A DNA stretch of 64,000 bases. Source: an uncultured bacterium. GTDB taxonomy: Bacteria > Lernaellota > Lernaellaia > JACKCT01. Position 1 is the stretch's first letter; each line of letters starts with the position of its first letter. The notes beneath the pieces are model-generated. The model had not been told where the DNA came from, did not search any database, and saw only the letters and a program-made list of their open reading frames with translations. This document shows, piece by piece, positions 6,856 through 64,000 of this stretch. Position numbers and translations under genes: made by a program. Where the stretch lies: assembly GCA_964591275.1 (NCBI GenBank), contig CAZQAE010000001.1:51988-115987 (forward strand), written 5' to 3'.

Positions 6856-6862
6856 GCCAAAA

Positions 6863-21792: not shown

Positions 21793-22319
21793 GTATTTAA
21801 TTTCTGATTCGTTTTCGGCCACTTCCAGGGAATGACCTTGTCGTCAAAAGTGAGGCGAAAAACATCCGGGTTGTCATTTTGATATGCGATGTTCGTGACG
21901 TTGAGGATCATGGATTCTTTTTCGCCAATATTCTGGATGCCGTGCAGGACCATCGCCGGGATTTTGACCAGAAGAGGATTTTCCGGCGTCATAATGAATT
22001 CATTGATTAATCCCGAAGTCATTGAAGCTTCCCCTTGATGACCGAAACCGAGTTTTTCGTTCCGGCAGTCATATAACACCAGCCTGATTTTTCCGCAAAG
22101 CGCGCAAAGGTGGTCGACCTGCTTGCGGTGAAAGTGCCACGCCTTTATAACGCCGGGAAAAGCGGTGCTGGTATAAACTTGGCCGAATCTTTCAAAGAGA
22201 TTGTCGTCGGAGCGCATAAAAATGGTCAGTCGCCCGCGTTCATCGGCAATGACGGGCAGCTTCTTTACACGCACGCCTTCAATGCGTTGCGATGCGGGCG
22301 TAATAGTCGGATCGTTCAA
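21789..22319 (-). CDS. WxcM/FdtA-like cupin (nucleotide-sugar 3,4-ketoisomerase / epimerase-like)
   Basis: 176-aa cupin with a KAWHFHRKQ-type motif typical of FdtA/WxcM-like domains. Confidence 0.55.
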   Translation of the reverse strand: MNDPTITPASQRIEGVRVKKLPVIADERGRLTIFMRSDDNLFERFGQVYTSTAFPGVIKAWHFHRKQVDHLCALCGKIRLVLYDCRNEKLGFGHQGEASMTSGLINEFIMTPENPLLVKIPAMVLHGIQNIGEKESMILNVTNIAYQNDNPDVFRLTFDDKVIPWKWPKTNQKLNT

Positions 22320-25238: not shown

Positions 25239-25391
25239 GACGGCGTCGCCTTTCGATGGTCGAAACTTTTCTTATTGTGTCCACGCGCCCGCCCTGCTGT
25301 CAACACAGGGCAAAGTTAGCAAGACACTGGACATTGCAGGCTTTATTAGGCTGTGTTAGTTCAGTTGTCAGTGTTGTCCAAGGAGGTCCTT

Positions 25392-26876: not shown

Positions 26877-26898
26877 TAAAGGTTATGGAGTCACCGCG

Positions 26899-30994: not shown

Positions 30995-31049
30995 AAACCA
31001 GATCCTGTTCGTTTGGGATCGGAAAAATGTCGCTATGGAAATCACAATT

Positions 31050-46651: not shown

Positions 46652-46697
46652 TCCCAATACCCCTTATCGGGTTGTCGATGACGGTGATCGGCGTTCA

Positions 46698-47852
46698 TTA
46701 GTTCGCCGGGCCGCCATGCTCGTTATAATATCTGAGCGCCAACAAGGCTTCCAGATTGTCGAACGAAAATACTTCGTCGTCGCAAAATGAGCCATACATT
46801 GGGCTGATCCTGTTTTTGCTTTGAAAATACAATAGTCTTTCGATGACTTCAGCGGCGAATTTGACGTCGCCGCAACGAAGCGCGTATCGGGCTAAAAGCG
46901 CATATACGCTTGACGACTCAAAAAATTTCGTCGCTTCGCCGCTCAGGGAGTTGTACTCGGCGTATATGGCGCCGTCTTCCTTCATTTTTTCCTTGAAAAA
47001 GTTCAGGAGTTCGTGGCGGTCGTCCGGCGACGCCGTTAAAAATAATCCGCAATATAATTGGTTGATCGTATTTTGCTGGTAACCGAAATACGCTCCCCGC
47101 GAAAAGTCATATCCCTCATAAAACAACCCTGCGCCGAGTTGCCCGTTTTTAAGCATTTCATAATTACGTTTCAATATCTTTTTCCAAGTTGGGTCGAGCC
47201 GTGAAAGTTTCAGCATGGTTGGCAAATCCAAATAAGACAACTGGACCTGTGGCGCAACCGTATGCTCTCCCCAATCGCGCCAGTTGACGAAATCCCTGAG
47301 TGCATCGTCCACGACTTCATAGTTTTGGATGCTTTGCGCTACCTGCATGGCATAATCCATATAGGGTTTCGATTTCCATTGCTCATAAGCGCCCAGGCAC
47401 GCGCCGACGATGCGCAAATCATCCACGCTGGCCGTAGAGTTTGCCGTCAGTTCGCCGTCATGCGTTATTTTCCAAAAGAACAAGCCAATTTGTCCGACGA
47501 GCTTCTTTTTCGCAAATTGAAGTTGCCCGTCAAACAGCTCTTTGTCGTCTGCCGCCACAGCGTAATTCATCATGATTCCCGTGCTTTCCGACAGGAGTCC
47601 TGAACGTCTGAAATCGTCGAGGCGGAACTTTTTGAAAAAAAGATAATTTTTGACTTCCGAGGCTGTATATATTCCTCCTTCCGCAGTCATCATGCGCTTT
47701 TCAATGAAGCGCCTGCACGTCAATTCGGCCTTGACGGGATCAAGCGGTTTCCAGCACCATGCAGCCGACGCCAGGGCTGGAATGAGCGCTGCGGCGAAAA
47801 TGATGCCATAACGGATAAATCGCGAATTCACGGCGCCGCGCTGTGCGGACAT
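46698..47852 (-). CDS. Secreted glycoside-hydrolase-like protein ((alpha/alpha)6-barrel, GH8/BcsZ-like)
   Basis: AAGGAGG RBS. Signal peptide ending ALASAAW. Position in operon matches the periplasmic hydrolase slot of synthase-dependent EPS systems. Family assignment rests on weak motif similarity only. Confidence 0.45.
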   Translation of the reverse strand: MSAQRGAVNSRFIRYGIIFAAALIPALASAAWCWKPLDPVKAELTCRRFIEKRMMTAEGGIYTASEVKNYLFFKKFRLDDFRRSGLLSESTGIMMNYAVAADDKELFDGQLQFAKKKLVGQIGLFFWKITHDGELTANSTASVDDLRIVGACLGAYEQWKSKPYMDYAMQVAQSIQNYEVVDDALRDFVNWRDWGEHTVAPQVQLSYLDLPTMLKLSRLDPTWKKILKRNYEMLKNGQLGAGLFYEGYDFSRGAYFGYQQNTINQLYCGLFLTASPDDRHELLNFFKEKMKEDGAIYAEYNSLSGEATKFFESSSVYALLARYALRCGDVKFAAEVIERLLYFQSKNRISPMYGSFCDDEVFSFDNLEALLALRYYNEHGGPAN

Positions 47853-47855
47853 TCC

Positions 47856-49130
47856 TTATTCCGCCTCCTTTTCCTGAATTCGGTATCGTACGGTTTTAAC
47901 CCACTCCGTCTTCTTTTTCCTCGTGACAATGTCGAGATAAACAGAACGAGACACGACGATAATCCATAGCTGGCAGTACGTAACGTACATAATGAAGGAT
48001 AAGACAACGTTTTTAAACGATTCCTCCTCCTCCAAACTGACGGCGATAAGGGTCTGTAGGAAAAAGAGCATCATCGCCAGGAACCAGATAAAGGCGAAAG
48101 GTCCGATGAGTCCGAGTTTGACGACTCCCAACAGACCCATGATGGCGATGACGTCCGAGAGAAGCAGGGCGAAAAAGAACATGTAATACAGGCTGAACAT
48201 ATAAAAAAGATCGACCATGATCCGGCGGTTTTTCATTTGGAATGCGACGCGAAGGAACTTTCGCACGATGTAGCTGATCCCTTGCGCCCAGCGGGTTCGT
48301 TGCCGGATGAAGGTTTTCATATCCTCCGGCTCTTGTTCCCATGTCACGGCGTAGGGAATGAATTTGATTCGATAACCCATCTCATAGAGGCGAATCGAAA
48401 GTTCGGCGTCCTCGGCGACGGCGTCCTCATCGAAGCGCCCCGCCTTGTCGAGAACCTTGCGCCAGATGACGTAATTTGTGCCCGGCAGCGTGGCGAGACC
48501 GAAAAGCTTGTAACGACCGCCTTGTATGATCCACTGGAAGGTAATGAATTCGATGTTGATGAAAGGAGGCAGATAGCCGCGATCCCTGTTGATGGTGCGT
48601 ACTTTGCCGAGAACAGCTCCCAGCTTTGGATTTTCCAAAAGGTTGGCGACCAGATTGAACAGTGAGTCCGGCTCCGGATGGTTGTCGGCGTCAAAGATCG
48701 CGATGACGTCGCCCATCGAATGCTCCAGGCCGATATTCAAGGCTCGACTCTTGCCTCTGCCGCCTTCTCCCTCCGGGATGTTGACGAGCTTGACTTCGCG
48801 GTGGCGACGAGCCATGCGCGTCGTGATTTCCTCTGTCTCATCTTCACTGCCGTCATTGATCACCAGGATCTCCATGCGCTCTTTCGGATAGAGCATGGCT
48901 AGCATGGACTGGATCGTTCTTTCAATCACAATGGCTTCGTTGTGGCAGGGTATGAGTATGGAAACGAAAGGGAAGGGGAATGGTTCGTTGGCGATTCGCT
49001 GTCGTTCTTTCTCGGCTGAAACACCGTTCAGGAAAGCAAAGAAAGTCAGAAGTACATTGAACAAAAGAAACAACCAGATGCCTATAGCAGCTGATAAAAA
49101 CGCCAAGTCGATGTAAACGCTGGTGTACAT
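47856..49130 (-). CDS. Processive family-2 glycosyltransferase (PgaC/IcaA/NodC-like polysaccharide synthase)
   Basis: N-terminal TM, then GT2 domain with SILIPCHNE, DGSED and IFDADN, plus the processive QRTRWAQG (QxxRW) motif. C-terminal TM bundle. 424 aa. Confidence 0.85.
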   Translation of the reverse strand: MYTSVYIDLAFLSAAIGIWLFLLFNVLLTFFAFLNGVSAEKERQRIANEPFPFPFVSILIPCHNEAIVIERTIQSMLAMLYPKERMEILVINDGSEDETEEITTRMARRHREVKLVNIPEGEGGRGKSRALNIGLEHSMGDVIAIFDADNHPEPDSLFNLVANLLENPKLGAVLGKVRTINRDRGYLPPFINIEFITFQWIIQGGRYKLFGLATLPGTNYVIWRKVLDKAGRFDEDAVAEDAELSIRLYEMGYRIKFIPYAVTWEQEPEDMKTFIRQRTRWAQGISYIVRKFLRVAFQMKNRRIMVDLFYMFSLYYMFFFALLLSDVIAIMGLLGVVKLGLIGPFAFIWFLAMMLFFLQTLIAVSLEEEESFKNVVLSFIMYVTYCQLWIIVVSRSVYLDIVTRKKKTEWVKTVRYRIQEKEAE

Positions 49131-49131
49131 C

Positions 49132-51186
49132 TTAGGATTCTTCCCCTTTTCGTGACGCCATCCACTTCCTGGCTCCGGAAAAGGTCTTGCGGGTAATCAG
49201 GAACACCCACAGAATCAGGAAGGTGATCAAGGTCAAAATTCCCAGGATGAGGATAGCCAGAGCCACCGGATTCGTCACCCCGGAGACGGTCGGTCTGAAC
49301 AAGGTGATGTTCGATAAACCGATTTTTGGGCGTTGATACGAACCCTGCAAGACCTGCAATTCTCCCGGACGCAATGAGACATACTTATGGATATCGCCCG
49401 TGACAGTTCCGAAGGAATAGGTTTCGCCAAGAAGCTCTCCCTGGCGACTAATAGTCAGTTCGTGTTTATATTGCGAACCCAGAGTGAGAATGACCTCGCC
49501 GATTCCGCTGACGACGACCCGATCCCTTGTGGTAACTTTATTATTGAAATCCGCGAGGGAGGCGAATTCCCATTCCTGCGCGATCAGACCGTCCACGACC
49601 TCTTCCAGCAATTTCAAGTCCAGATAGGTGTGGAAGAAAAAACTGGCCCAGCCGTCGCGAACAACTTTTGTGGCCTCGGCGTCAATGAGGATCGCCTCAG
49701 GCGTGCGTCCGACTTTGGGATTCACATAACCCAGGCTTTCCGGGATGATAATCTGTTTGTGCTTGTCGGACTTTATCAGATAGGGAAAGAACTGGTCGGA
49801 GCCGAACAATTCCACGGGCATGCGCCGTTCCACCACCGTTGTGAAGTAATTGGCAAAGACGCTGTAATCCACTTGCCCCGCCGCGTAATGGGGCGTCGTC
49901 CATGCCAGGGGAAAAATGTCGTTCAGGAAACATTCATTGAGTGCGCGCTCGATTCTTACCGAGGCGAAGGTTGCGTCCCCGGCGGAAATCGGCCCGCCGA
50001 TCTCATGACTCCAAAACTCGTAATCGACCGCCGTTTCTCCCGAAATCTGGTGCGTATAACCGTGAAGGATGACCGAACCGCCGCGGCTGATAAGATATTT
50101 GATGGTCTCCTGGAACTCGGGATCGTCCGAAAGGTAGATCGTTTCGTCCGTTGCAGGATTTTTGTAAACGGGGATTAGCGTAAAGGCGAAGGGTATGCCT
50201 CTTTCATAAAGCAGGTCAGCGGCTAGCTTGAGTGGTCCCGGCTGCCGCTTTGCGTGTATGTCCTCCAGGCGCACGAAGGCGCGATGGCGTTCTTTGTGGT
50301 TTTGGCCGAGGAAATCATGCAGAATATCCGCAAAAGCCAGATAGGCGCCGCCCTCAATGGAGTAAGCCAGCGCGTCCGAAGCCACGTACCAGAAATTGTC
50401 CGAATGCACGATGTAGGGCAATTCAATCGCGGGCGGCTCGGTGGGCGGCGGCGCGAGAAACTCTGCCAAATTTGAGGAATCGAAAAGATCATATGCCCGT
50501 ATGGGTTTGACGGCCTGGCCGATGGGCATTACCGGCAGCATGGTTTCCAGGGGATTGTTCATGGGAGATTCCGCCGTACCGGGCGGGATGTCTTTTCCGT
50601 ATTCTGCGGGTTTCAGGGGATCGGCGACGAAACGGGCTGTCGCCATAACCTTGGCCAATGCCGGTCTGGTCACGTTGATAGCGAAGGTGCGCAGATCGAT
50701 TTTCGCCAGATGCCGTCCCTTGTATTCGACATCATTCGTAAGATGATTGTCCGAATCATCCACCAGACTGATGCCCCACTTATCCATGCTGTGGCGATTT
50801 TGCATGCGTTCCAGGTTGGCGCCGATCCACATGACTTGCGCCCTGGTGTCGAAAATGTCGTCGATCAAATAACTCGGCAGAGGCTGTCCGGTTTTTGTGC
50901 CCACATAAAAAACAAAAGACGCATCTTTAGCCATGCCTTTTTTGTAGCTTGCCGTTGAAATTTTCTCCAACGACACACTAAAATGGCAAAGCAATTGTGC
51001 AAGAGATTCGGCGCTGACGATTTCGCGGTTGAGACTTTCAGCGTTAGTGGGCTCATCATAGATAATAAGAACGGGTTTTCCGCCGGGGCCGAGAACTTCC
51101 TGTTCAGGCTTAAGTTGGATAAAAATGACGTACAGCACTCCCAAGATCAGCGCCAAAGCAATGAAGGGAATTAGGACTGTGCGCAT
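49132..51186 (-). CDS. DUF2334-type polysaccharide deacetylase-like protein, membrane-anchored at both termini
   Basis: N-terminal and C-terminal TM helices. Central region FAFTLIPVYKNP...VILHGYTHQ is typical of DUF2334 (CE4-like fold). Confidence 0.65.
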   Translation of the reverse strand: MRTVLIPFIALALILGVLYVIFIQLKPEQEVLGPGGKPVLIIYDEPTNAESLNREIVSAESLAQLLCHFSVSLEKISTASYKKGMAKDASFVFYVGTKTGQPLPSYLIDDIFDTRAQVMWIGANLERMQNRHSMDKWGISLVDDSDNHLTNDVEYKGRHLAKIDLRTFAINVTRPALAKVMATARFVADPLKPAEYGKDIPPGTAESPMNNPLETMLPVMPIGQAVKPIRAYDLFDSSNLAEFLAPPPTEPPAIELPYIVHSDNFWYVASDALAYSIEGGAYLAFADILHDFLGQNHKERHRAFVRLEDIHAKRQPGPLKLAADLLYERGIPFAFTLIPVYKNPATDETIYLSDDPEFQETIKYLISRGGSVILHGYTHQISGETAVDYEFWSHEIGGPISAGDATFASVRIERALNECFLNDIFPLAWTTPHYAAGQVDYSVFANYFTTVVERRMPVELFGSDQFFPYLIKSDKHKQIIIPESLGYVNPKVGRTPEAILIDAEATKVVRDGWASFFFHTYLDLKLLEEVVDGLIAQEWEFASLADFNNKVTTRDRVVVSGIGEVILTLGSQYKHELTISRQGELLGETYSFGTVTGDIHKYVSLRPGELQVLQGSYQRPKIGLSNITLFRPTVSGVTNPVALAILILGILTLITFLILWVFLITRKTFSGARKWMASRKGEES

Positions 51187-51219
51187 TTAATGCAAAACTC
51201 CGCTTTCAATCATCATCAA

Positions 51220-52074
51220 TTAAAATGCCTGATACCGTGAGTCGATAACGTTGACGAGTTCCTCCAGGTTGCCGGCGTCTTTTGGAAAATTGGAAGCTGC
51301 AATAGTCAGATCAGGAATAATCTCATCCCATTTTGATTCGATGGCCTCAATCAATTCTTCTCTTCGTTCGGCGACGCGCATCAGCACCACGTTTGTGCCG
51401 GCGGCGTTGGTTTCAGGTAGGATCAGGCCGATTTCCGTGTCCGAGTACTTGCCGATATAATCCGTGTCGCGCAGCATCTGGCGCATGAAGCGCCCCATTT
51501 CACGGAAGAGGGCGATTTCCTCTTCGGCATCGTATCGTTTTTCAAAATCTTCGAGATTGTTGATGCGCATGAAGATGAGAGACAAAGGGATATTGTAGCG
51601 TTTGACGCGTTTTATCTCGCCATTGAGCATCCATCGGAAACTTTTGAAATTGTACAGCCCCGATTCCTGGTCGGGAATGAAAGTTTCGACTTTTGTGACT
51701 TCCCGGAAAGAATCCGAGTGCCGGAAATCCAGCACTTCGGAAATGATGCCCAGAACGAATCCCACCGAAACAAGTACGCCGATGTTTGCAATACTTTCAC
51801 GGATGAAGCCGGATTGCGCCGTTCCCTGAACGATCTTGAACAGGACAAGAGAGCCGTAAACCGCCGTGGAAAGAACGGATAACAGCGCACCGTGCTTTAG
51901 CCCTTTTGTGACCGCAAGAAAGGCAATCGGAAAAGACAGGACAAAAGTCAGCGCCTTATAAGATCGAATTTGAAAGAAGTAGGCGAAGAAAATCCCGAAT
52001 AGCAAGCCCAGTATCGTCAGCGTGAACAGATCTCGATATTCAAAAGATTTTTTCGGGCCGCCTTGTCCGTTCAT
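51220..52074 (-). CDS. Membrane protein with degenerate GGDEF domain retaining RxxD I-site (PelD-like c-di-GMP receptor candidate)
   Basis: Three to four N-terminal TMs. GGDEF fold signature GLYNFKSF...LSLIFMRINNLEDFEKRYD...MLRDTDYIGKYSDTEIGLILPET. The active-site GG(D/E)EF is replaced by YSDTE. RDTD sits exactly 5 residues upstream, as the I-site does in active cyclases. Confidence 0.7.
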   Translation of the reverse strand: MNGQGGPKKSFEYRDLFTLTILGLLFGIFFAYFFQIRSYKALTFVLSFPIAFLAVTKGLKHGALLSVLSTAVYGSLVLFKIVQGTAQSGFIRESIANIGVLVSVGFVLGIISEVLDFRHSDSFREVTKVETFIPDQESGLYNFKSFRWMLNGEIKRVKRYNIPLSLIFMRINNLEDFEKRYDAEEEIALFREMGRFMRQMLRDTDYIGKYSDTEIGLILPETNAAGTNVVLMRVAERREELIEAIESKWDEIIPDLTIAASNFPKDAGNLEELVNVIDSRYQAF

Positions 52075-55732: not shown

Positions 55733-56164
55733 ATGACTGTGGAATTTCGCCGAATCGTTGATCACTTCGCCAATGAGGCGGAAGCGGTTGTGCGTGATGA
55801 GGATTCCATCAGGCGCAGTTCGATGGAAATAGAGTTGCTCAACGGAGTGGACGAAGAGGGCGGCCAGATGCTCCACCGTTTCTTTGGGGAGCCGGTGAAA
55901 TCATCCGGGAGTCCCGCGGAGGCGGATGTCATCAACAATCCCGTCGTTAAGCAATTGGGCGGCGTGTACGTCGATCAGACGGTTTATATCAGGCGGGGTG
56001 AGGACAAAGAGTGTTTTTATGCCGCGCTTTGGCCCTGGCACATACGCCCCGGCATCGTCACTCTACATTTGGGCGTCCATGACGGAATGCAAAACCGCGA
56101 TATGAAACGGATGCTGTCGGACTGCCTGGAAGAAAATCCTAAACAAGTCAGAGAGAGTGCCTGA
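55733..56164 (+). CDS. Hypothetical protein
   Basis: AAGGAGG RBS 8 nt upstream of ATG 55733. 143 aa, no recognisable motif. Confidence 0.45.
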   Translation: MTVEFRRIVDHFANEAEAVVRDEDSIRRSSMEIELLNGVDEEGGQMLHRFFGEPVKSSGSPAEADVINNPVVKQLGGVYVDQTVYIRRGEDKECFYAALWPWHIRPGIVTLHLGVHDGMQNRDMKRMLSDCLEENPKQVRESA

Positions 56165-56496: not shown

Positions 56497-56526
56497 TTGA
56501 CACTTTCGGCGTGTGCCTTGTATATT
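56497..56526 (+). promoter_or_regulatory. Putative sigma70-like promoter (TTGACA - 18 bp - TATATT)
   Basis: Consensus -35 hexamer read directly, about 115 bp upstream of the lipoprotein gene start at 56643. Confidence 0.3.
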
Positions 56527-56642: not shown

Positions 56643-57617
56643 ATGACAAAGAAATTCTGGATATTGATGCTGGCTCTGATTATGGCTCTGGCCGTGGCGT
56701 TCGCATGCGGCGGCGACGACGACGACGACGATGATGGTGATGATGACGATGATCCGGGATTGGGAGATTCGGGAGTGATTCATGGTTTCGTTCGCGATTT
56801 CCAAACGAAGGTGGAAGTTAATAACGCCGATGTGGAAGCCGTTAACGATGAGACGGGCGAATCTTTCGACCCACCGCTGACCTTTACAACCGGCGCCGAC
56901 GGCGAGGTGAGTTTTGAGATTTCTTCGGAAGAGGAGTTCGTTGGAATTCTCGTAAAGAAGGAAGGCAGCCTGGACACAATCCAATTCCATTTCAAGGTTG
57001 GATTGGCAAATGAGGAGTTCCTGCTTATCAACGAAGGCACCAGGGACCTGATGCTGCTTTCATTGGACATTGACATGGATGAGTCGAAGGCAGTTGTCGC
57101 CGGGGGCATTTATTGGGGCGATCCTTTGGATGAAGACGCCGTAGGATGTTCTATGGTGAGTTTTGAGCCGGATGATGGCGTGGGCGTCTATTACTTTGGC
57201 CCGGACGCTTTGCCGAACGCGGCCCGCACCGTTCCTGACGGCCAAACATCCTCAAACGGCCAGGGAACCCTGGAGGGTTACGCCCAGTCCGATGACCATG
57301 CATTAAGCTATTACGTGAGCGTCAACAAAACTCCCGACACCGATGTGAAACTCTTTGCATCCATTTATAGTGTGGAGAACGCCGACTTGGATGGGGCAAA
57401 GGACGACGACGTCGATGGCGATGTGGATGACGACGTAGATGATGACGTCGATGACGATGCGGATGATGATGCGGATGATGATGAACCTTCGTTCACGTCG
57501 GTGAGGGAAAAAAACGTTATTCCGTTGCTCAAGGCCAACACGGCGACCATCGTGAATGTTTATTTTCCAAGGACTACGTATGACGCAAATCCCACTCCGG
57601 CCTGGTGCACGGAATAA
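56643..57617 (+). CDS. Lipoprotein with poly-Asp linkers and carboxypeptidase-regulatory-like beta-sandwich region, paralog A
   Basis: Signal peptide with AFAC lipobox-like motif, then GGDDDDDDDGDDDDD. Central region GVIHGFVRDFQTKVEVNNADVEAVNDETGESFDP. Second DDDV repeat near the C-terminus. Ends TPAWCTE. Confidence 0.6.
   Translation: MTKKFWILMLALIMALAVAFACGGDDDDDDDGDDDDDPGLGDSGVIHGFVRDFQTKVEVNNADVEAVNDETGESFDPPLTFTTGADGEVSFEISSEEEFVGILVKKEGSLDTIQFHFKVGLANEEFLLINEGTRDLMLLSLDIDMDESKAVVAGGIYWGDPLDEDAVGCSMVSFEPDDGVGVYYFGPDALPNAARTVPDGQTSSNGQGTLEGYAQSDDHALSYYVSVNKTPDTDVKLFASIYSVENADLDGAKDDDVDGDVDDDVDDDVDDDADDDADDDEPSFTSVREKNVIPLLKANTATIVNVYFPRTTYDANPTPAWCTE
57403..57484 (+). repeat. Coding GAT/GAC poly-Asp repeat (internal, paralog A)
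   Basis: Tandem GACGACGTNGAT units. A shorter tract lies at 56711..56752. Confidence 0.7.
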
Positions 57618-57740: not shown

Positions 57741-58691
57741 ATGAACAAAAATCTGTTTATGGTCCTCGCATTTCTGATGATGGGGATATTTGCCGTAACG
57801 GCTGTATTTGTCGGCTGCGGCGACGATGACGATGATGATGACGATGACGATGATGTGGTTGACGATGACGCTGACGACGACGATGTCGATGATGATGTCA
57901 ACGACGATGTCGATGACGATGTCGATGATGATGTGGATGATGATGTGGATGACGATATCGCGGACGACGCCATCGCTGGTGTTGTCGTGGACTTCAAGGA
58001 AAGGACTATCCTGGCCGGCGCAACGGTCGAAGCCATTGATGATGCCACAGGCGCTTCATTCGATCCGGCCATTACGGGCGATTCGAATGCTGAAGGCTAC
58101 GTTTTGCTGGAAGGCATTCCCGCAGGCAAAGGCGCCGTTGGACTTAAGGTGACCAAGGGCGGTTACGTTGACACCATTCAATACCATTTCCCGACCGGCG
58201 TAAGCGACACGGAGATTCTGGCCGTTTCTTCCGCTACGCAGACCTTGCTCGCGGGTATTTTGCTTCTTCCTGTTCAAGCCGGCAAGGGATTCGCATCCGG
58301 CGGCGTGTATTGGGTTAATGAAGCTGGTGAAGAAGAGTACATTGGCTGCGCTGAAGTGACCGCTGATCCCAATACGATCAACGACGGCATTCACTACTTC
58401 CAATACATGGCATTGATGGACACTTTTGTGCCGACCCTTGATCGCGACATCGCTACGTCCGGTGATCCGCAGGACGGCGAAGGAACGAATCCCGATACGA
58501 GTTACTTTCTCGGCGCCAACGCCGATCCCGGCGCATACACGATTACGGCGACAGCCGGCGACAACAACGATCTGACAGCCACCTCGGTCATTCCGATGGT
58601 TTTCGCCGACAGCATCGTTATCACAACCGTGCTGTTCCAGTTCGAGGACTACCCCACGAACCCGACAGCGACCTGGTGCACCTCCAAGTAA
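57741..58691 (+). CDS. Lipoprotein with poly-Asp linker and carboxypeptidase-regulatory-like region, paralog B
   Basis: Signal peptide with FVGC, then 50-aa (DDDV)n tract. AGVVVDFKERTILAGATVEAIDDATGASFDP aligns with paralog A. Ends TATWCTSK. Confidence 0.6.
   Translation: MNKNLFMVLAFLMMGIFAVTAVFVGCGDDDDDDDDDDDVVDDDADDDDVDDDVNDDVDDDVDDDVDDDVDDDIADDAIAGVVVDFKERTILAGATVEAIDDATGASFDPAITGDSNAEGYVLLEGIPAGKGAVGLKVTKGGYVDTIQYHFPTGVSDTEILAVSSATQTLLAGILLLPVQAGKGFASGGVYWVNEAGEEEYIGCAEVTADPNTINDGIHYFQYMALMDTFVPTLDRDIATSGDPQDGEGTNPDTSYFLGANADPGAYTITATAGDNNDLTATSVIPMVFADSIVITTVLFQFEDYPTNPTATWCTSK
57822..57970 (+). repeat. Coding GAT/GAC poly-Asp repeat (paralog B)
   Basis: 12-nt periodic GATGACGATGTN units. 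The opposite strand reads as the Ser-rich shadow ORF 57737..58072. Confidence 0.75.
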
Positions 58692-58699
58692 ACATGTGC

Positions 58700-58735
58700 A
58701 ACCGGGCGGCATATTGCCGCCCGGTTGTTTTCTTC
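58700..58735 (+). terminator. Strong rho-independent terminator (12-bp perfect stem aaccgggcggca/tgccgcccggtt, loop tat, then GTTTTCTTC)
   Basis: Read directly, 9 bp after the paralog B stop codon. Confidence 0.75.
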
Positions 58736-58838: not shown

Positions 58839-60587
58839 ATGCGCTGGGGCCGATTGTGTGTGGTCGCCTTGTTCGCCGTCGTTCTTTTGCCATCGCTGGC
58901 TGCGGCGCAGGCTGACAAGTTCGACCTGAACGGATACTTCCAGGCTCAGTATGGATTGTTTACCAATACGGAGTATCACAACGAATCGGATATTGACGGT
59001 TTCCCGTCGAATCACGGCGACAGAGTGGGGAAGCCGTCGATGCTCAGGCACACGCTGCTGTTGGAAGCGGACTGGCGACCTTTTGACAACGTCAAGGTTC
59101 ATGCCGTTTTCCGTGGTGTCAGATCGGGGGCTTTGGGCGCGGACCGTTTCGCGCAGACCCCGGATATGGAATACGATTTAAAGTACAACCACGCCCCCGA
59201 AGTCATGGACGCGAAAATCCAAGCGACGCATAAGCGTTACTACAACGAAAACGAACTTCGTGAGATCTACGTGGACATCGACGCGACGGATAAGATCAAC
59301 CTTCGCGTGGGTCGCCAGCAAGTCAGTTGGGGCGACATGGCGACCTATCGACTTCTGGACGTGGTCAACCCCGTGGACGGAAGCTGGCATTTGCCGCCCT
59401 TTGAAGCTTTTGAGGACACGCGCAAACCCCTATACATGGCCAAGCTCCTGATCGACGTTCCGTGCCTGGAGGGAAACCTGGAAACTTTGTACATTCCCCT
59501 GATGGACGATCCTGAGGACACGGTGACCACGCCGGCCACATTTTACGGTGCATGGGGTTTGCCCGTTGGGTCGAAAAACGATTACGTTTCGGACCTTAGG
59601 GTCGTCAATAAGATCACGCAATATCCCAAGAACGATCTTTCAGATGCACGCGTCGGCGCTCGTTGGAAAGGAATTCTTGGTGGATTGACCTACACGTTGG
59701 TCGCCTATCACGGGCATCAGTTGACGCCGCCGATTCCGGATTACGTCGTCAAGTCCTGGGAAACCGACGATGAAGGGTTCCACAATGCTGATGTCTATTT
59801 GCGTGTTCCAAGGTTGAACACTTACGGTTTCTCGGTCGATTACGCCTTCGAGTCTCCGGTGGGAATGGTGGTGAAACTGGAAGCGGCGGTGACTCCCGAA
59901 GTGCAATACGCCGTTAACTCGCCTCTTTCGGCTGGATTCACCACCGACAATCGCGTGGACAGCACATGGGAGGCCATTGATCCTTCGGCGGGCGCAGAGT
60001 CCGATCTCCGGGCCGATATGCACAGCGAAGAGAGGCACCACGCAGCCTACGCCCTGGAGCTGTTTCGCTCCAACCAGATTCGTTTCATCAATCCCAAGTC
60101 TTCCATCATCACCGTTTTCCGTATTTTCCAGGATTACTATTTCAATCCTGAAGACATCAACGAAGATGAGTACAAACTGGGGAATCCCTACGTCCTGGAA
60201 ACACTCGAGGATGGTTCGCGGGAAAGAAATGAAAACTGGTACATCGTTTACGTGCCCGGGTATGACAGCGCGCTGGCTGCTCCCATCAAAACGACGTTTG
60301 TGGCCGCCGCCTTCACGTCATATTTTCACGGCATGTTTACGCCGGGCGTCGTGGCTGTGTACCTGCCGCGCTATCCTGCGGAAATCGTTGACAGCAGTGA
60401 TGTCTTCGACTGGGAAACCATGGAAAATGGCTCCGGCTTCGTGAGCGCAACAATGAAATTCAGTTTTGGAAACCACTGGCGATTAGCTACGGGATATAAT
60501 TACCTGCAGGGGGCTGATCCCTATTACGATTTGGGATTCTTCCGGGATCGCGACGAGGTTTACGCAAAGGTTCGTTATCAATTCTAG
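58839..60587 (+). CDS. DUF1302 family outer-membrane protein
   Basis: Signal peptide, then the family-typical GYFQAQYGLFT...LRVGRQQVSWGD...LLDVVNP architecture. 582 aa. Confidence 0.75.
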   Translation: MRWGRLCVVALFAVVLLPSLAAAQADKFDLNGYFQAQYGLFTNTEYHNESDIDGFPSNHGDRVGKPSMLRHTLLLEADWRPFDNVKVHAVFRGVRSGALGADRFAQTPDMEYDLKYNHAPEVMDAKIQATHKRYYNENELREIYVDIDATDKINLRVGRQQVSWGDMATYRLLDVVNPVDGSWHLPPFEAFEDTRKPLYMAKLLIDVPCLEGNLETLYIPLMDDPEDTVTTPATFYGAWGLPVGSKNDYVSDLRVVNKITQYPKNDLSDARVGARWKGILGGLTYTLVAYHGHQLTPPIPDYVVKSWETDDEGFHNADVYLRVPRLNTYGFSVDYAFESPVGMVVKLEAAVTPEVQYAVNSPLSAGFTTDNRVDSTWEAIDPSAGAESDLRADMHSEERHHAAYALELFRSNQIRFINPKSSIITVFRIFQDYYFNPEDINEDEYKLGNPYVLETLEDGSRERNENWYIVYVPGYDSALAAPIKTTFVAAAFTSYFHGMFTPGVVAVYLPRYPAEIVDSSDVFDWETMENGSGFVSATMKFSFGNHWRLATGYNYLQGADPYYDLGFFRDRDEVYAKVRYQF

Positions 60588-60631
60588 GCTGTTGCGAAAA
60601 GCTTCGACAATCGCCAAATGGAGGTTATGAA

Positions 60632-61909
60632 ATGAGGTTAAAAAAAATTGCTCTGTTATCGGCTGTGGCTGCGCTGGTCATAGGGGTAGCGACCGTGGCC
60701 GTGGGACAGGGGAAAATAACGCGCGGCAACTGGGCTGAATCCGTTGGTTTCAAACCTGACTTGTCGGGTATGCCCAAAGCCGGAGAAGTTATCAGCGCCG
60801 GCAATCTCGACCAATACAAGTCCGTCATCCCCGGCGGCGTTCAAATGCTGATCAAAAAATACGGTTTCAAGGTATGGACGAAGGATTACGAGTCAGTAGC
60901 TCCTGCCGACAGCTATATCGCCGCGACAAATAAGCATATGGGAACGGCAAAAACCTTGGATCCGAATGCTCATTATCGCAAAATCGGGCTCAAGGGCTAC
61001 AAGGCCGGACTTCCTTTCCCGCATCCTAAAACCGGTGTTGAAGTGGCATGGAACTATACTTATTCCTATTCCGGTGACGATGCAAAAAACTGGTTCGGCG
61101 TTTATTGGATCAGCGCCAAAACCGGCATTGAACGCTCCGAGGATTGGACCTGGAACTACATTACGCGAGGCTGCTTCCGCACGGACATCGAGCCCATGCC
61201 CGATATCCCCGAAGCGCGTGCCAAGCGCATCCAATATTATTCGGTCACGACGGCGCTGTCGCCGCTCGACAAAAAAGGTTTCTCCGCCATGTACACGCGG
61301 AAAATCGAACCCAAGGATCAGCAGGGATACATCTACGTTCCGGCTCAGCGAAAATCAACGCGCTTCGCTTTCGGAACACGAGGTGACTCTTGGAACAACA
61401 CCGACATGCTCTATGAGGATGTGCGCGGATATATGGGTTATCCCGAATGGATGACATGGAAGATCGTCGAGAAAAAGACGATGCTTCTGCCCATGAACGC
61501 CGACGTCCCACACGGGAAGGCTAATATCAGCAAGGTTTACGATTTCGACAGAGCGCCCCATTGGAACTTCAAAGCCAAGTGGGAGCCGCGACCCGTATAC
61601 GTCGTCGAGGCCAAAGCCAAATTCCCGGATTATCCTTATAGCAAGATGGTCTTCTACTTTGATGCGGAGCTATCCTATGTTTGCGTGAAAGATGCTTACG
61701 ACAAGAAGGGGCAACTCTGGAAAGTTCTTGTCAACGCCTGGAATAAGGCAGACGATCCGCACTCTACGCCGTCGCCCGTCGGCACCTCCCTGGTCGTTGA
61801 CTTGCAAGCTGAGCACGCGACGGCCTTCGGTTGGCACAAGTCCCTGTCCAATGTGGGCCTGACGCCTGGGGACTTCAGCCTAGCCAATCTCCGCAAGCTC
61901 GGGAAGTAA
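60632..61909 (+). CDS. DUF1329 family (LolA-like fold) periplasmic protein
   Basis: GGAGG RBS. Signal peptide. Typical DUF1329 length (425 aa). Conserved pairing immediately downstream of a DUF1302 gene. Confidence 0.75.
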   Translation: MRLKKIALLSAVAALVIGVATVAVGQGKITRGNWAESVGFKPDLSGMPKAGEVISAGNLDQYKSVIPGGVQMLIKKYGFKVWTKDYESVAPADSYIAATNKHMGTAKTLDPNAHYRKIGLKGYKAGLPFPHPKTGVEVAWNYTYSYSGDDAKNWFGVYWISAKTGIERSEDWTWNYITRGCFRTDIEPMPDIPEARAKRIQYYSVTTALSPLDKKGFSAMYTRKIEPKDQQGYIYVPAQRKSTRFAFGTRGDSWNNTDMLYEDVRGYMGYPEWMTWKIVEKKTMLLPMNADVPHGKANISKVYDFDRAPHWNFKAKWEPRPVYVVEAKAKFPDYPYSKMVFYFDAELSYVCVKDAYDKKGQLWKVLVNAWNKADDPHSTPSPVGTSLVVDLQAEHATAFGWHKSLSNVGLTPGDFSLANLRKLGK

Positions 61910-61913
61910 TCGC

Positions 61914-62978
61914 ATGAACAAAAGTCGCCTGACAGGGGGCCTCATTCTGAGGCCCTTGATCCTTTGCATCATCGTTTTGCCGTTTATTACGACCTCCCTG
62001 GCTTTGGCTTCGGATTTCGACCCGAAGGTCCCCGTCGCCTTTCGTGACCGGCTCTATGATGTTCAGTTTATTTCCGAAACCGAAGCCATCATTATTGGCT
62101 ATCCGGGTAAGATTTTCAGAAGCGCCGACGGCGGAGAAACTTGGGAACGCATCACCATCGACACAACGGAGCCGCTGTTTTCGCTGCATTTCATCAATGC
62201 GAAAACCGGCTGGATCGCCGGAAGAAGCGGTTTGATCTTCATCACGGGAGACGGTGGAAAAACCTGGACGAAGCAGGACAGCGGCGTGAGTGAGCATCTT
62301 TTCGGCATTCATTTTTTCAATGAAAAAGTCGGCGTCGCCGTCGGCAACTTCGGCGTCATTGTTAACACTGTTGACGGAGGAAAAACGTGGTCTGGTCAAA
62401 TCCTCCAGGAGATGTCTTCGGCGACTATATACGCAGTGCAAATGCTCGACGAAAACACTGGCTTTCTGGTGGGTGAGTATCCAATATGGGAAGCGGATTT
62501 GGAAGAAGATGTCGAGGCCTCCACTTTGAGTAGTGTTTTCAAAACCTCCGACAGCGGCGTTACATGGGAGCGCGTGGAGGTTCCGACCGAGTCTCACCTT
62601 TTTGATCTCGAATTTGTCAGTGCGCTGGAAGGATACGCCGTTGGGACGAAGGGATTGGTGCTCAAGACTCTGGATGGCGGAGTGACCTGGGAAGTTTTCA
62701 AAGCGCCGACGCCCTTCCATCTTCTGAGCGTTGAAGCTCATGGCGATACTGTTGTGGCTGTGGGAAACGCGGGGACCGCCGTTTACAAGAAAGGCGGCGA
62801 AATCAAAATTCCCCCAACGGGAGCCTATTCCTGGATTGGGTCTGTGAGCTTCAATAAAAAAGGCCGGGGGATTCTCGTGGGCGACCACGGCCTCATCATG
62901 CTCTCGGAAGATAAAGGCAATACGTGGACTTGCCTGTCGCCGACATGCAAAGGCGTTGACCAACAAAAAACGAAGTGA
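61914..62978 (+). CDS. BNR/Asp-box repeat protein (Ycf48-like beta-propeller)
   Basis: Repeated S/T-x-D-G-G-x-T-W Asp-box motifs (SADGGETW, TGDGGKTW, TVDGGKTW, TLDGGVTW, SEDKGNTW). Confidence 0.75.
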   Translation: MNKSRLTGGLILRPLILCIIVLPFITTSLALASDFDPKVPVAFRDRLYDVQFISETEAIIIGYPGKIFRSADGGETWERITIDTTEPLFSLHFINAKTGWIAGRSGLIFITGDGGKTWTKQDSGVSEHLFGIHFFNEKVGVAVGNFGVIVNTVDGGKTWSGQILQEMSSATIYAVQMLDENTGFLVGEYPIWEADLEEDVEASTLSSVFKTSDSGVTWERVEVPTESHLFDLEFVSALEGYAVGTKGLVLKTLDGGVTWEVFKAPTPFHLLSVEAHGDTVVAVGNAGTAVYKKGGEIKIPPTGAYSWIGSVSFNKKGRGILVGDHGLIMLSEDKGNTWTCLSPTCKGVDQQKTK

Positions 62979-62989
62979 AGAATACGAAT

Positions 62990-64000
62990 ATGAAACCATC
63001 CGAAAAGCAGAAAATCGGGACCTTCTTTATTAAGAATCGAATCCTCGTCGTGGCTGTCGTTTTGATCCTGACGACCTTTTTCGGGATTATGACCACGCGC
63101 GTGCACATGAAGACACCGACGATCGACCTGTTTCCGAAAAACCATCCTTATGTTGAAACTTATGCCGAATATCAGGATGTTTTCGGCGGCGCGGACCACG
63201 TTGCAATTTCTCTCGAAGTCTTTAAGGGCGATGTATTCAACACAAAGACACTGGAAAAGCTAAGGCGCATAACCAAGGCCATTGAACTTTTGCCTGCGGT
63301 GAACAACTACTCTGTTCTGTCGTTAGCGCAGCGCAAAATTAAAATCACCACGGTGGACGAGATCAAAGGCTTTAAGTCCGATCCCGTTATGTGGCCCGAC
63401 GTCCCGCAAAGCGAAGAGGAACTGAGTGAACTTCGCCGCAAGGTGTACGCCAGCGGTCGCTATCACGGTTCACTGGTTTCTACGGACGACAAGTCGCTGA
63501 TGGTTTATGCGGGCTTTTTTGAAAAGGGTTTGCAAAGCGCCGGCGACACGATCGAAGAGGTTGTACGCTACATCGCGAGCGTCGAGGGCCAGGAACCGGA
63601 CGAGGCTGTGGAAATCATGGCAAAGGTTGCTTCCGATCAGAAGTGGTCGATGGACGACACGCTGTTCACCGCGATCCGCAAGATTGCCGTTTCCGAGGAA
63701 GATGAGAATCACAAGATTCGTATGATCGGCCGTCCAATCATGCTGGGATGGATCGCGCAGAAGTATCCTCAGCTCGCCTACATTTTCCTTTTGACCGTTC
63801 TGGTCATCGTTATCAGCCTGATCCTGTATTTCAAGAATTTCGTGGGCGTCGTCATCCCAATGCTCACTGCGACCTTTTCAGCCATATGGGGCATCGGCTT
63901 CCTGGGATTGCTCAACTACTTGGCAGAGGTCAAAGGAATTGACTGGTTCGGACTGGGCGACTACCACTTCAATCCCCTCGTGATTGTTGTGCCGTTCATC
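62990..64000 (+). CDS. RND-superfamily (MMPL/HpnN-like) exporter, N-terminal part (partial; runs off window end)
   Basis: ATG 62990. TM1, then large periplasmic loop, then TM cluster LTVLVIVISLILYF...AIWGIGFLGLLNYL. Frame stays open through position 64000 (337 codons, no stop), so it is absent from the ORF track. Confidence 0.7.
   Translation, partial: MKPSEKQKIGTFFIKNRILVVAVVLILTTFFGIMTTRVHMKTPTIDLFPKNHPYVETYAEYQDVFGGADHVAISLEVFKGDVFNTKTLEKLRRITKAIELLPAVNNYSVLSLAQRKIKITTVDEIKGFKSDPVMWPDVPQSEEELSELRRKVYASGRYHGSLVSTDDKSLMVYAGFFEKGLQSAGDTIEEVVRYIASVEGQEPDEAVEIMAKVASDQKWSMDDTLFTAIRKIAVSEEDENHKIRMIGRPIMLGWIAQKYPQLAYIFLLTVLVIVISLILYFKNFVGVVIPMLTATFSAIWGIGFLGLLNYLAEVKGIDWFGLGDYHFNPLVIVVPFI

What the first reader, a model, noticed from the sequence alone, without database searches (positions are those of the whole stretch)
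58839..64000. DUF1302 - DUF1329 - BNR beta-propeller - RND(MMPL) exporter cluster
This four-gene order is a conserved outer-membrane/periplasm/inner-membrane module of unknown function in Proteobacteria. The DUF1302/DUF1329 pair has been linked to uptake or surface handling of hydrophobic substrates, for example the Marinobacter AupA/AupB alkane-uptake system. That link rests only on my recollection of the DUF assignments, which I could not confirm here.

Its presence in what appears to be a non-proteobacterial-looking genome, preceded by two poly-Asp lipoproteins, is notable.
Basis: partly seen in the sequence, partly recalled or inferred. Interest (0 to 1): 0.55.

Follow-up and report, generated by a model that had tools for sequence, protein, structure and literature searches.

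The report
Five-gene envelope transporter for hydrophobic molecules
This is a real, natively inherited copy of a known but poorly understood bacterial envelope-spanning transporter for greasy molecules, and in this uncultured lineage and its relatives it always comes with an extra tethered lipoprotein that has not been described as part of the system.

Summary
Window 58839-64000 (+) encodes DUF1302 (outer-membrane beta-barrel), DUF1329 (LolA-like periplasmic protein), a Ycf48-like BNR propeller and an MMPL/HAE3-type RND pump. The pump is cut by the window end; the full gene encodes 841 aa on the source contig.

This is the four-component cassette described by Price et al. and studied as AmeABCD in Castellaniella. 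Its biochemical function is still unresolved.

- **HGT:** it is not a recent transfer. GC, GC3 and codon usage match the rest of the window. A related MAG keeps the whole neighbourhood, including glyQS.
- **Host:** a deep uncultured lineage, not Pseudomonadota. The nearest named relatives are Lernaellota, Myxococcota and Desulfobacterota MAGs, where the cassette is common.
- **New point:** the two "poly-Asp lipoproteins" are tandem paralogs of a small family. A member lies directly upstream of DUF1302 in all 30 loci of this clade that contain DUF1302, and in 5 of 5 loci found by searching with the lipoprotein. It is absent from the three proteobacterial examples checked.
- **Lipoprotein fold:** two beta-sandwiches, best matched across both domains by A. 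fulgidus lipase.
- **Poly-Asp tether:** a habit of this lineage, not specific to the cluster.

Most likely it is a proton-driven exporter or shuttle for hydrophobic molecules.

The parts
56497..56526 (+). Sigma-70-like promoter candidate upstream of LP1 (TTGACA-18-TATATT)
   Evidence: It matches 11 of 12 consensus positions at L001 5866-5895, which is window 56497-56526. The scan as a whole found no more sites than in shuffled sequence, so this is weak evidence.
56643..57617 (+). LP1: lipoprotein (324 aa) with a signal peptide and lipobox Cys, a short poly-Asp tether, a two-beta-sandwich core, a second poly-Asp insert, and a C-terminal ...NPTPAWCTE
   Evidence: The sequence is. It is a paralog of LP2 (29% identity, E 3e-29). 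It scores E 4e-63 against the LP-family HMM. Orthologs are present in L002 (64%) and L003 (41%).
57741..58691 (+). LP2: lipoprotein (316 aa) with a signal peptide and lipobox Cys, a poly-Asp tether of about 50 aa, and a two-beta-sandwich core ending ...NPTATWCTSK
58698..58728 (+). Terminator-like hairpin (14-bp stem, 10 G-C pairs, T-rich tail) between LP2 and DUF1302
   Evidence: at L001 8067-8097. It suggests that the LP pair is a separate or attenuated transcript from the four downstream genes.
58839..60587 (+). DUF1302 outer-membrane beta-barrel (582 aa; Sec signal peptide; C-terminal ...YQF)
   Evidence: Pfam PF06980, 63.2 bits. The AF2 model has pLDDT 88.3, pTM 0.84 and about 20 long strands. 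Foldseek hits are outer-membrane barrels: MOMP, OccAB1, AlgE and OpdO.
60632..61909 (+). DUF1329 LolA-like periplasmic protein (425 aa; signal peptide)
   Evidence: Pfam PF07044, 189.9 bits, and LolA_like, 58.6 bits. It is 84% to 49% identical to homologs in 32 genomes.
61914..62978 (+). Ycf48-like BNR beta-propeller, periplasmic (354 aa; signal peptide)
   Evidence: PF14870, 119 bits. It matches Ycf48/HCF136 in the PDB at E 1e-20. It is below the Ycf48 equivalog cutoff (118 against 326 bits).
62975..64000 (+). MMPL/HAE3-type RND inner-membrane pump, 5' part only (the full gene, 841 aa, would end at window-equivalent position 65500 on the source contig)
   Evidence: Recovered on the source contig. 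The full protein scores MMPL 114 bits, TIGR00921 132 bits and TIGR00833 137 bits. Hydropathy gives 12-13 peaks read as TM1, a large loop, TM2-6, TM7, a large loop and TM8-12. It is distantly related to MmpL4/5, HpnN and MmpL3 structures.

Best explanation
This is a chromosomal, vertically inherited AmeABCD-type envelope-spanning system built around an MMPL/HAE3-family RND pump. In this clade it is extended by a dedicated lipoprotein, present here as two tandem paralogs.

**Proposed mechanism**
1. The proton-motive-force-driven RND protein takes a hydrophobic or amphiphilic molecule from the inner membrane or its outer leaflet. Its periplasmic loops are bound by the Ycf48-like propeller.
2. The LolA-like DUF1329 protein receives the molecule and carries it across the periplasm.
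3. DUF1329 docks on the DUF1302 beta-barrel, which passes the molecule into or across the outer membrane.
4. The LP lipoprotein is held on a long acidic disordered tether. Its two-beta-sandwich domain acts as an accessory at the barrel or shuttle step, binding the ligand or capping or positioning the barrel.

**Shown here:** the identity, order and completeness of the parts; the predicted folds; native inheritance; and the strict LP-DUF1302 linkage.

**Inferred:** the direction (export), the shuttle step, the role and location of LP, and the substrate. No catabolic genes are conserved around the cassette in this clade, so the substrate is most likely an endogenous envelope lipid or a general hydrophobic toxicant rather than a specific nutrient.
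For: **Parts and architecture**
- All four families pass their Pfam cutoffs.
- RND hydropathy is consistent with the canonical 12-TM plan with two large periplasmic loops.
- The nearest solved relatives of the RND are lipid or siderophore exporters: MmpL4/5, HpnN and MmpL3.
- The DUF1302 model is a large outer-membrane barrel.
- DUF1329 carries a LolA_like domain.

**Published support for the model**
- Deleting AmeABCD lowers monoterpene tolerance and raises Nile Red accumulation (PMC6394551).
- The four genes are cofit in Shewanella, Kangiella and Pseudomonas (10.1101/072470).
- AlphaFold co-folding predicts a DUF1302+DUF1329 complex and a separate DUF1329+BNR+RND complex (PMC10866462). A second study reports ipTM 0.84 for DUF1302-DUF1329 (PMC13499233).

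**Native inheritance**
- GC, GC3 and codon usage lie inside the window's range.
- L003 keeps DUF2334-GGDEF-GlyS-GlyQ-hyp143-LP1-LP2-DUF1302-DUF1329-BNR.

**LP linkage**
- 30 of 30 loci that contain DUF1302 have LP directly upstream.
- 5 of 5 loci found with LP as the query have DUF1302 directly downstream.
- LP is absent from the Aromatoleum and Pseudomonas examples.

**Context**
- No gene outside LP-A-B-C-D is conserved next to the cassette across the clade.
Against: - No member of this cassette has a biochemically defined substrate or a solved structure.
- The P. putida phenotypes (needed for growth on Tween 20 and butyl stearate) fit uptake as well as export.
- The window proteins are only 28-34% identical to the proteobacterial cassette checked here (Aromatoleum), so function may differ.
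- The HAE3 TIGRFAM score is well below its curated cutoff (132 against 352 bits).
- The LP-lipase similarity is fold-level only (9% identity). That it maps to the lipase's C-terminal lipid-binding domain is my inference from LP being all-beta.
- A strong terminator-like hairpin separates LP2 from DUF1302, so co-transcription is not assured.
- Two loci (L024, L031) have DUF1329 with no DUF1302 or LP detected upstream, and in L024 BNR and RND follow it.
- No complex prediction or localisation of LP could be done here.
Confidence: 0.55

Rival explanations
1. It is an uptake system for hydrophobic nutrients. DUF1302 is an import channel and DUF1329 (with LP as a surface or periplasmic capture protein) carries fatty esters, terpenes or aromatics inward. 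The RND-BNR pair serves a separate or regulatory role.
For: - P. putida DUF1302 and DUF1329 mutants fail on Tween 20 and butyl stearate.
- ameB is needed for growth on monoterpenes.
- A Delftia DUF1329 mutant grows poorly on phenanthrene, and the cassette is highly expressed in a benzene-degrading Desulfobacterota culture.
- The LP core resembles the fold of a lipase whose C-terminal domain binds long-chain substrate.
Against: - RND/MMPL pumps are exporters, by established knowledge of the family. The pump is strictly co-clustered and cofit with the other three genes.
- Deleting AmeABCD increases dye accumulation, which points to efflux.
- In this clade no catabolic genes are conserved beside the cassette.
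Confidence: 0.15
2. It is a dedicated lipoprotein or envelope-lipid biogenesis route in which the LP lipoproteins are the cargo. The LolA-like DUF1329 would carry their acyl chains to the DUF1302 barrel for insertion or surface display.
For: - DUF1329 matches the LolA_like 'outer membrane lipoprotein-sorting' domain.
- LP is always encoded immediately upstream of the barrel gene.
- Price et al. proposed export of a cell-wall or envelope component.
Against: - The cassette works and is conserved in Proteobacteria without any LP gene, so LP cannot be the general cargo.
- An RND pump is not known to energise lipoprotein release.
- LP appears to be transcribed separately (hairpin).
Confidence: 0.1
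3. DUF1302 and DUF1329 are enzymes (an esterase), as Thompson et al. suggested for P. putida.
For: The hypothesis was raised from fitness data on fatty esters.
Against: - The DUF1302 model is a porin-like outer-membrane barrel.
- DUF1329 is LolA-like.
- No hydrolase domain was detected in either protein.
- A later co-folding case study on the same P. putida proteins (PMC10866462) favoured a transport role.
Confidence: 0.03
4. The cluster is a recent horizontally acquired island from Proteobacteria.
For: The Pfam families are best known from Proteobacteria, and some copies sit on conjugative plasmids.
Against: - Cluster GC is 0.505-0.539 and GC3 0.59-0.66, against a window background of 0.529 +/- 0.024 and 0.613 +/- 0.041. 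Codon-usage correlation is within the background range.
- Identity to proteobacterial copies is only 26-34%, against 44-61% to Ca. Lernaella and 49-84% to MAGs of the same clade.
- Synteny with glyQS and neighbouring genes is kept in a relative whose GlyS is 52% identical.
Confidence: 0.02

Closest known systems
AmeABCD of Castellaniella defragrans (DUF1302 AmeA, DUF1329 AmeB, COG4447 AmeC, HAE3 RND AmeD), which is the same four-gene cassette Price et al. found cofit in Shewanella, Kangiella and Pseudomonas
   Same: It has the same four protein families in the same A-B-C-D order. Signal peptides and topology match an outer-membrane barrel, two periplasmic proteins and a 12-TM RND pump. The RND is 34% identical over its full length to the MMPL of the related Aromatoleum EbN1 cassette.
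   Different: - Identity to the proteobacterial proteins checked is only 26-34%.
- This copy is not embedded in a catabolic island.
- It is preceded by a clade-specific lipoprotein, duplicated here, that none of the three proteobacterial loci checked contains and that the AmeABCD and Price et al. descriptions do not list.
HpnN (hopanoid) and MmpL3/4/5 (mycolate and siderophore) RND exporters
   Same: They belong to the same MMPL/HAE3 branch of the RND superfamily. They share the 12-TM architecture and the TM10-type 'GxGxDY' motif, here GVGLGVDYGLY.
   Different: The relationship is very distant (E 6e-11 to 1e-5). HpnN equivalog scores are far below cutoff (32.5 against 1100 bits, and 69.7 against 752 bits). 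As described in PMC6394551, HpnN works without a dedicated outer-membrane barrel or co-transcribed periplasmic partners.
Marinobacter AupA/AupB alkane-uptake system
   Same: It is also an outer-membrane plus inner-membrane pair linked to handling of a hydrophobic substrate.
   Different: AupA is a FadL-family protein, not DUF1302. AupB is an inner-membrane protein of unknown function, and no RND, BNR or LolA-like component is involved (PMC5989066). The window's barrel protein hits DUF1302 and no FadL-type family.
The 'Nanopod' gene cluster of benzene-degrading Desulfobacterota ORM2a (porin-like protein, DUF1329, USP, hypothetical, YCF48-related, MMPL)
   Same: It is a non-Pseudomonadota example of the same module. 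It is highly expressed and was interpreted as a transmembrane complex for a hydrophobic compound (PMC13101534).
   Different: It has extra USP and hypothetical genes inserted, and no LP-type lipoprotein is reported. I did not compare the sequences here.
C-terminal domain of Archaeoglobus fulgidus lipase AFL (PDB 2ZYR)
   Different: Sequence identity is 9-14%. LP has no hydrolase domain. Whether LP keeps a hydrophobic binding groove was not tested.

Membership tests
AmeABCD-type DUF1302-DUF1329-COG4447-HAE3 RND cassette | DUF1302-family outer-membrane beta-barrel | tested here: met
   PF06980, 63.2 bits against a cutoff of 23.2. The AF2 model is a barrel (pLDDT 88.3) that matches MOMP, OccAB, AlgE and OpdO. 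It has a signal peptide and a C-terminal Phe.
AmeABCD-type DUF1302-DUF1329-COG4447-HAE3 RND cassette | DUF1329 / LolA-like periplasmic protein | tested here: met
   PF07044, 189.9 bits, and PF17131, 58.6 bits.
AmeABCD-type DUF1302-DUF1329-COG4447-HAE3 RND cassette | Ycf48-like (COG4447) BNR beta-propeller with a signal peptide | tested here: met
   PF14870, 119 bits. PDB Ycf48/HCF136 match at E 1e-20. One N-terminal hydrophobic segment.
AmeABCD-type DUF1302-DUF1329-COG4447-HAE3 RND cassette | RND pump of the MMPL/HAE3 branch with 12 TM segments and two large periplasmic loops | tested here: met
   PF03176, 114 bits. The hydropathy profile has 12-13 peaks consistent with 12 TMs, with loops at 42-266 and 490-668. 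The best NCBIfam subfamily hits are TIGR00833 and TIGR00921, but both are below their curated cutoffs, so the HAE3 label itself is only approximate.
AmeABCD-type DUF1302-DUF1329-COG4447-HAE3 RND cassette | The four genes are adjacent and co-oriented | tested here: met
   Gaps of 44 nt and 4 nt, then a 4-nt overlap. The same order is found in nearly all related loci.
AmeABCD-type DUF1302-DUF1329-COG4447-HAE3 RND cassette | Efflux of or tolerance to hydrophobic compounds | not testable with these tools
   This is known only for C. defragrans. It needs genetics or transport assays.
AupA/AupB alkane uptake system | Outer-membrane component of the FadL family | tested here: not met
   The window's barrel hits DUF1302 (and weakly Porin_O_P), with no FadL-type family. 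AupA is described as FadL-like in PMC5989066.
AupA/AupB alkane uptake system | AupB-type inner-membrane partner | not tested
Nothing in the cluster except the RND is an inner-membrane protein.
HpnN hopanoid transporter | Equivalog-level match to HpnN | tested here: not met
   NF052374, 32.5 bits against 1100. TIGR03480, 69.7 bits against 751.85.
Classical tripartite HAE1 RND efflux pump (AcrAB-TolC type) | AcrB-type pump with an HlyD-type adaptor and a TolC-type outer-membrane factor | tested here: not met
   ACR_tran scores 18.8 bits, below the 28-bit cutoff. None of the cluster proteins hits an adaptor or OMF family.
Ycf48 photosystem II assembly factor | Equivalog-level match | tested here: not met
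   NF010237, 118 bits against a cutoff of 326. It shares the fold and family but not the function.
LP family (clade-specific lipoprotein, unnamed) | Signal peptide with lipobox Cys, a low-complexity tether, a two-beta-sandwich core with two invariant Cys, and a gene directly upstream of DUF1302 | tested here: met
   The window's own copies have no Pfam match. Some homologs carry a precomputed PF13620 hit.

The most novel reading that the evidence does not exclude
In Myxococcota-, Lernaellota- and related 'delta-like' bacteria the cassette would be an obligatory five-component machine. A tethered lipoprotein with a lipid-binding two-sandwich domain would work with the DUF1302 barrel, giving a previously unrecognised housekeeping route for moving an endogenous envelope lipid from the inner membrane to or through the outer membrane. 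The route would run RND+propeller, then the LolA-like shuttle, then barrel+lipoprotein. It would be analogous in logic to LptDE or Lol but unrelated in its parts.
Probability: 0.15. Interest if true: 0.75.

Novelty: new variant of a known kind. Interest (0 to 1): 0.4.

Why it matters
The DUF1302-DUF1329-BNR-RND cassette is widespread. It gives phenotypes in several bacteria and is often highly expressed on hydrophobic substrates, yet its substrate and mechanism are unknown.

This work shows that a large non-Pseudomonadota clade carries a divergent, chromosomally stable version. That version has a strictly linked extra lipoprotein with a confidently predicted fold that resembles a lipid-binding domain.

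This gives two things. First, it supplies an additional handle for working out the mechanism: a candidate ligand-binding or barrel-associated subunit to test by co-folding, pull-down and lipid binding. Second, it corrects the record on two points: AupA/AupB is not this system, and the cassette is not an oddity outside Proteobacteria.

On the evidence gathered here, this is an incremental rather than a surprising advance.

Tried and rejected
**Searches that found nothing**
- Rfam scan of the whole window: no RNA family.
- NCBIfam: no model for DUF1302, DUF1329 or the LPs.
- PDB sequence search: nothing for DUF1329, and only chance-level hits for DUF1302.
- Pfam on the trimmed LP cores, hyp143 and the 780-aa poly-Asp lipoprotein: nothing significant.

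**Searches that worked poorly**
- The word-indexed homolog search with the LP2 core gave only 7 hits. The exhaustive profile search was needed to size the family: 475 representatives at E <= 1e-3.
A 4-sequence alignment worked but returned only 5 loci.

**Ideas tested and dropped**
- I looked for genes conserved beside the cassette that might point to a substrate pathway. None is shared beyond close relatives. The downstream genes for a lytic transglycosylase, a secreted GDPD and an enoyl-CoA hydratase are not conserved elsewhere, so I do not count them as part of the system.
- I asked whether poly-Asp is a cluster-specific feature. It is not. Another lipoprotein at 9149-11491 has the same DDDVDDD tether, and another ORF has an internal one. 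Most homologs outside the window's closest relatives use D-, T-, G-, P- or Q-rich linkers instead.
- The HGT-island idea is rejected on composition, synteny and identity.

**Left unresolved**
- The phylum could not be named. The closest genomes are labelled only 'bacterium', and GlyS barely separates Lernaellota (46%) from Syntrophales (44-45%).

Full report
**1. Observation**

The + strand of window 58839-64000 carries four tightly packed ORFs. Pfam assigns them as follows:
- DUF1302 (582 aa): PF06980, 63.2 bits, E 3e-17.
- DUF1329 (425 aa): PF07044, 189.9 bits, plus LolA_like, 58.6 bits.
- A Ycf48-like BNR propeller (354 aa): PF14870, 119 bits.
- The N-terminal part of an MMPL-type RND transporter.

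An exact-sequence look-up with the DUF1329 protein recovered the source contig, ENA ERZ27317826 k141_452316 (165,665 bp). The RND gene is complete there at 841 aa. It starts at window 62975 and overlaps the BNR stop codon by 4 nt.

The full RND protein scores MMPL 114 bits, TIGR00921 (HAE3) 132 bits and TIGR00833 137 bits. Its hydropathy profile is consistent with the canonical RND plan: TM1, a loop of about 225 aa, TM2-6, TM7, a loop of about 180 aa, TM8-12.

**2. Known counterpart**

This is the cassette that Price et al. found cofit in Shewanella, Kangiella and Pseudomonas. They proposed that it exports a cell-wall component (10.1101/072470).

Puentes-Cala and Harder studied it as AmeABCD in Castellaniella defragrans, with the same A-B-C-D order. 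Deleting it reduced monoterpene tolerance and increased Nile Red accumulation (PMC6394551).

In P. putida the split cassette (PP_0765/6 plus PP_2018/9) is needed on Tween 20 and butyl stearate. AlphaFold co-folding there suggested two alternative complexes, DUF1302+DUF1329 and DUF1329+BNR+RND, which amounts to a shuttle (PMC10866462). Another study reports an 18-stranded barrel and ipTM 0.84 for DUF1302-DUF1329 (PMC13499233).

A Desulfobacterota benzene degrader expresses a similar cluster very highly (PMC13101534).

AupA is FadL-like and AupB is an inner-membrane protein of unknown function (PMC5989066).

**3. Structure checks done here**

An AF2 model of the window's DUF1302 protein (60-sequence alignment) has pLDDT 88.3 and pTM 0.84, with about 20 long beta-strands. 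By Foldseek it matches outer-membrane barrels: C. jejuni MOMP, OccAB1, AlgE and OpdO. The protein has a Sec signal peptide and ends in ...YQF.

The BNR protein is sequence-related to solved Ycf48/HCF136 structures (E 1e-20) but falls far below the Ycf48 equivalog cutoff.

The RND protein's nearest solved relatives are MmpL4/5, HpnN and MmpL3 (E 6e-11 to 1e-5). It is not an HpnN equivalog.

No adaptor (HlyD-type) or TolC-type gene is present, so this is not a classical tripartite pump.

**4. Host and inheritance**

Composition does not mark the cluster as foreign:

| Measure | Cluster genes | Other window genes |
|---|---|---|
| GC | 0.505-0.539 | 0.529 +/- 0.024 |
| GC3 | 0.59-0.66 | 0.613 +/- 0.041 |
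| Codon-usage correlation | 0.79-0.93 | 0.77-0.95 |

A scan of one genome per GTDB species with the DUF1329 protein gave 32 loci. The closest are MAGs labelled only 'bacterium' (84%, 67%, 60%). The rest are Myxococcota, 'Deltaproteobacteria' and Bradymonadales MAGs at 49-58%.

L003 (67%) keeps the whole upstream neighbourhood: DUF2334, GGDEF, GlyS (52%), GlyQ (78%), a 143-aa hypothetical, LP1 and LP2. That argues for vertical inheritance.

Ca. Lernaella stagnicola (phylum Lernaellota, formerly FEN-1099) has the same cluster. Identities to the window proteins are DUF1329 61%, RND 55%, DUF1302 44% and BNR 42%.

Proteobacterial copies are far more distant. DUF1329 is 26-28% identical. Against the Aromatoleum EbN1 cassette, the RND is 34% and the other three proteins 28-29%.

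The window's GlyS has these best hits:
- 92% and 70% to unnamed MAG contigs.
- 51-55% to 'Deltaproteobacteria bacterium' or 'bacterium' MAGs.
- 46% to Ca. Lernaella and to a 'Myxococcales' MAG.
- 44-45% to Syntrophales and Smithella.

The host is therefore a deep uncultured lineage outside Pseudomonadota. I cannot name its phylum. The cassette is common in these lineages, so its presence here is not exceptional. The HGT alternative is refuted.

**5. The lipoproteins are part of the system**

LP1 (56643-57617) and LP2 (57741-58691) are paralogs (29% identity, E 3e-29). Each has:
- a signal peptide and a lipobox Cys;
- an acidic low-complexity tether;
- a core of about 230 aa with two invariant cysteines and a C-terminal ...NP.P..WCT motif.

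tblastn showed a homolog just upstream of DUF1302 in most related loci. An HMM built from these homologs found one in all 30 loci that contain DUF1302, counting the window and Ca. Lernaella. Four of the copies are partial because they lie at contig edges. Four loci have two tandem copies: the window, L002, L003 and L027.

The remaining loci are accounted for as follows:
- L004 and L032 begin within or at DUF1329, so no upstream region is held for them.
- L024 and L031 have DUF1329 with no DUF1302 or LP detected upstream. In L024 the gene directly upstream is proS.

The reverse test was a metagenome scan with an LP alignment. It returned five loci, and all five have DUF1302 immediately downstream. 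Four of them have tandem LP copies.

The HMM finds no LP in the Aromatoleum or Pseudomonas plasmid loci.

The family is small: 475 representatives at E <= 1e-3 among 1.84 billion, with the domain nearly always at the C-terminus. The window's own copies match no Pfam model. Some homologs carry a precomputed CarboxypepD_reg hit.

**6. LP fold**

The AF2 model of the LP2 core is confident (pLDDT 90.8, pTM 0.87) and all-beta, with two sandwich domains.

[quoted passage not shown] 2009, as cited in PMC6501381). LP is all-beta, so I infer that it maps to that C-terminal domain. This mapping is not shown by residue ranges. The similarity is a lead for hydrophobic-ligand binding, not proof.

**7. Poly-Asp tether**

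The poly-Asp tether is not specific to this cluster. A 780-aa lipoprotein at 9149-11491 has the same CGDDDDD...DDVDDDV tether, and another ORF near 26736 has an internal run. Most LP homologs in the other lineages use D-, T-, G-, P- or Q-rich linkers instead. Poly-Asp is thus a habit of this lineage for tethers.

**8. Transcription hints**

A near-consensus promoter-like site lies upstream of LP1 at window 56497-56526. A 14-bp G+C-rich hairpin with a T-rich tail lies right after the LP2 stop at 58698-58728. The LP pair may therefore be transcribed apart from, or in excess of, the A-D genes. These are pattern matches only.

**9. Context**

No gene outside LP-A-B-C-D is conserved beside the cassette across the clade. 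The downstream genes on the source contig are not conserved elsewhere. They are an MltD-like lytic transglycosylase, a secreted GDPD and an enoyl-CoA hydratase.

Unlike the proteobacterial examples, which sit in catabolic islands, this version looks like a self-contained envelope function.

**10. Mechanism and verdict**

Best-supported model (confidence about 0.55):
1. A proton-driven MMPL/HAE3-type pump with a bound Ycf48-like propeller extracts a hydrophobic molecule from the inner membrane.
2. It passes the molecule to the LolA-like DUF1329 shuttle.
3. DUF1329 delivers it to the DUF1302 barrel.
4. The tethered LP acts as a ligand-binding or barrel-associated accessory.

The parts, folds, linkage and native inheritance are shown here. 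The direction, hand-off, LP role and substrate are inferred.

Rivals are uptake of hydrophobic nutrients (0.15), an LP-as-cargo lipoprotein route (0.10), an enzymatic role (0.03) and a recent HGT island (0.02).

In terms of novelty this is a new variant of a known kind: a divergent clade of a described cassette with a strictly associated fifth gene. None of the papers consulted here lists such a lipoprotein among the cassette's components. Interest is moderate (0.4).

Noticed in passing
window 9149-11491 (+): A 780-aa predicted lipoprotein with no Pfam match. It carries the same long poly-Asp 'DDDVDDD' tether after its lipobox Cys as LP1 and LP2. This suggests that poly-Asp tethers are a general feature of lipoproteins in this lineage.
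   Followed up: partly
window 26736-26858 (+): Another poly-Asp/Glu run (DDDDDADDDVDDDD...DADDDEDDDDE) lies where two long ORFs overlap (25353-26876 and 26686-27873). The second of these has a weak alpha/beta-hydrolase hit.
   Followed up: no
window 41345-52074 (-): A probable exopolysaccharide operon: a 1769-aa all-TPR protein, a GH8-like hydrolase, a family-2 glycosyltransferase, a 683-aa DUF2334 (deacetylase-like) protein and a GGDEF diguanylate cyclase. It lies directly upstream of glyQS. Part of this arrangement (DUF2334, GGDEF, GlyS, GlyQ) is syntenic in L003.
   Followed up: partly
window 5373-9054 and 13330-14853: Four radical-SAM genes (two with B12-binding domains, two with SPASM domains) flank the poly-Asp lipoprotein and a PMT_2-family glycosyltransferase (11551-13293). 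This may be a peptide or lipid modification cluster.
   Followed up: no
window 31035-32447 (+): A homolog of neutral/alkaline ceramidase (PF04734, 150 bits), followed by two 470-552-aa ORFs with no Pfam match. It hints at sphingolipid metabolism in this organism.
   Followed up: no
window 17305-21822 (-): Two tandem large sulfatase-family proteins (807 and 695 aa). The catalytic domain starts near residues 220-250 in both, so each has a long N-terminal extension.
   Followed up: no
window 55733-56164 (+): A 143-aa protein with no family match lies between glyQ and LP1. It is conserved at the same position in L002 (60%), L003 (41%) and L039 (39%), but not in the Myxococcota loci. It could be a lineage-specific regulator or partner of the cluster.
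   Followed up: partly
L040 2241-3506 and L041 2245-3528 (- strand): In two metagenome relatives a second DUF1329 paralog (about 51% identical to the window's) lies divergently upstream of the tandem LP pair.
   Followed up: no
L001 14903-18258 (source contig, beyond the window end): Directly downstream of the RND gene are an MltD-like lytic transglycosylase, a secreted glycerophosphodiester phosphodiesterase and an enoyl-CoA hydratase. These are not conserved next to the cassette in other genomes.
   Followed up: yes
L024 7700-9628: In a Sandaracinaceae MAG the gene directly upstream of DUF1329-BNR-RND is proS. No DUF1302 or LP is present nearby, so the cassette is split there as it is in Pseudomonas.
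   Followed up: partly
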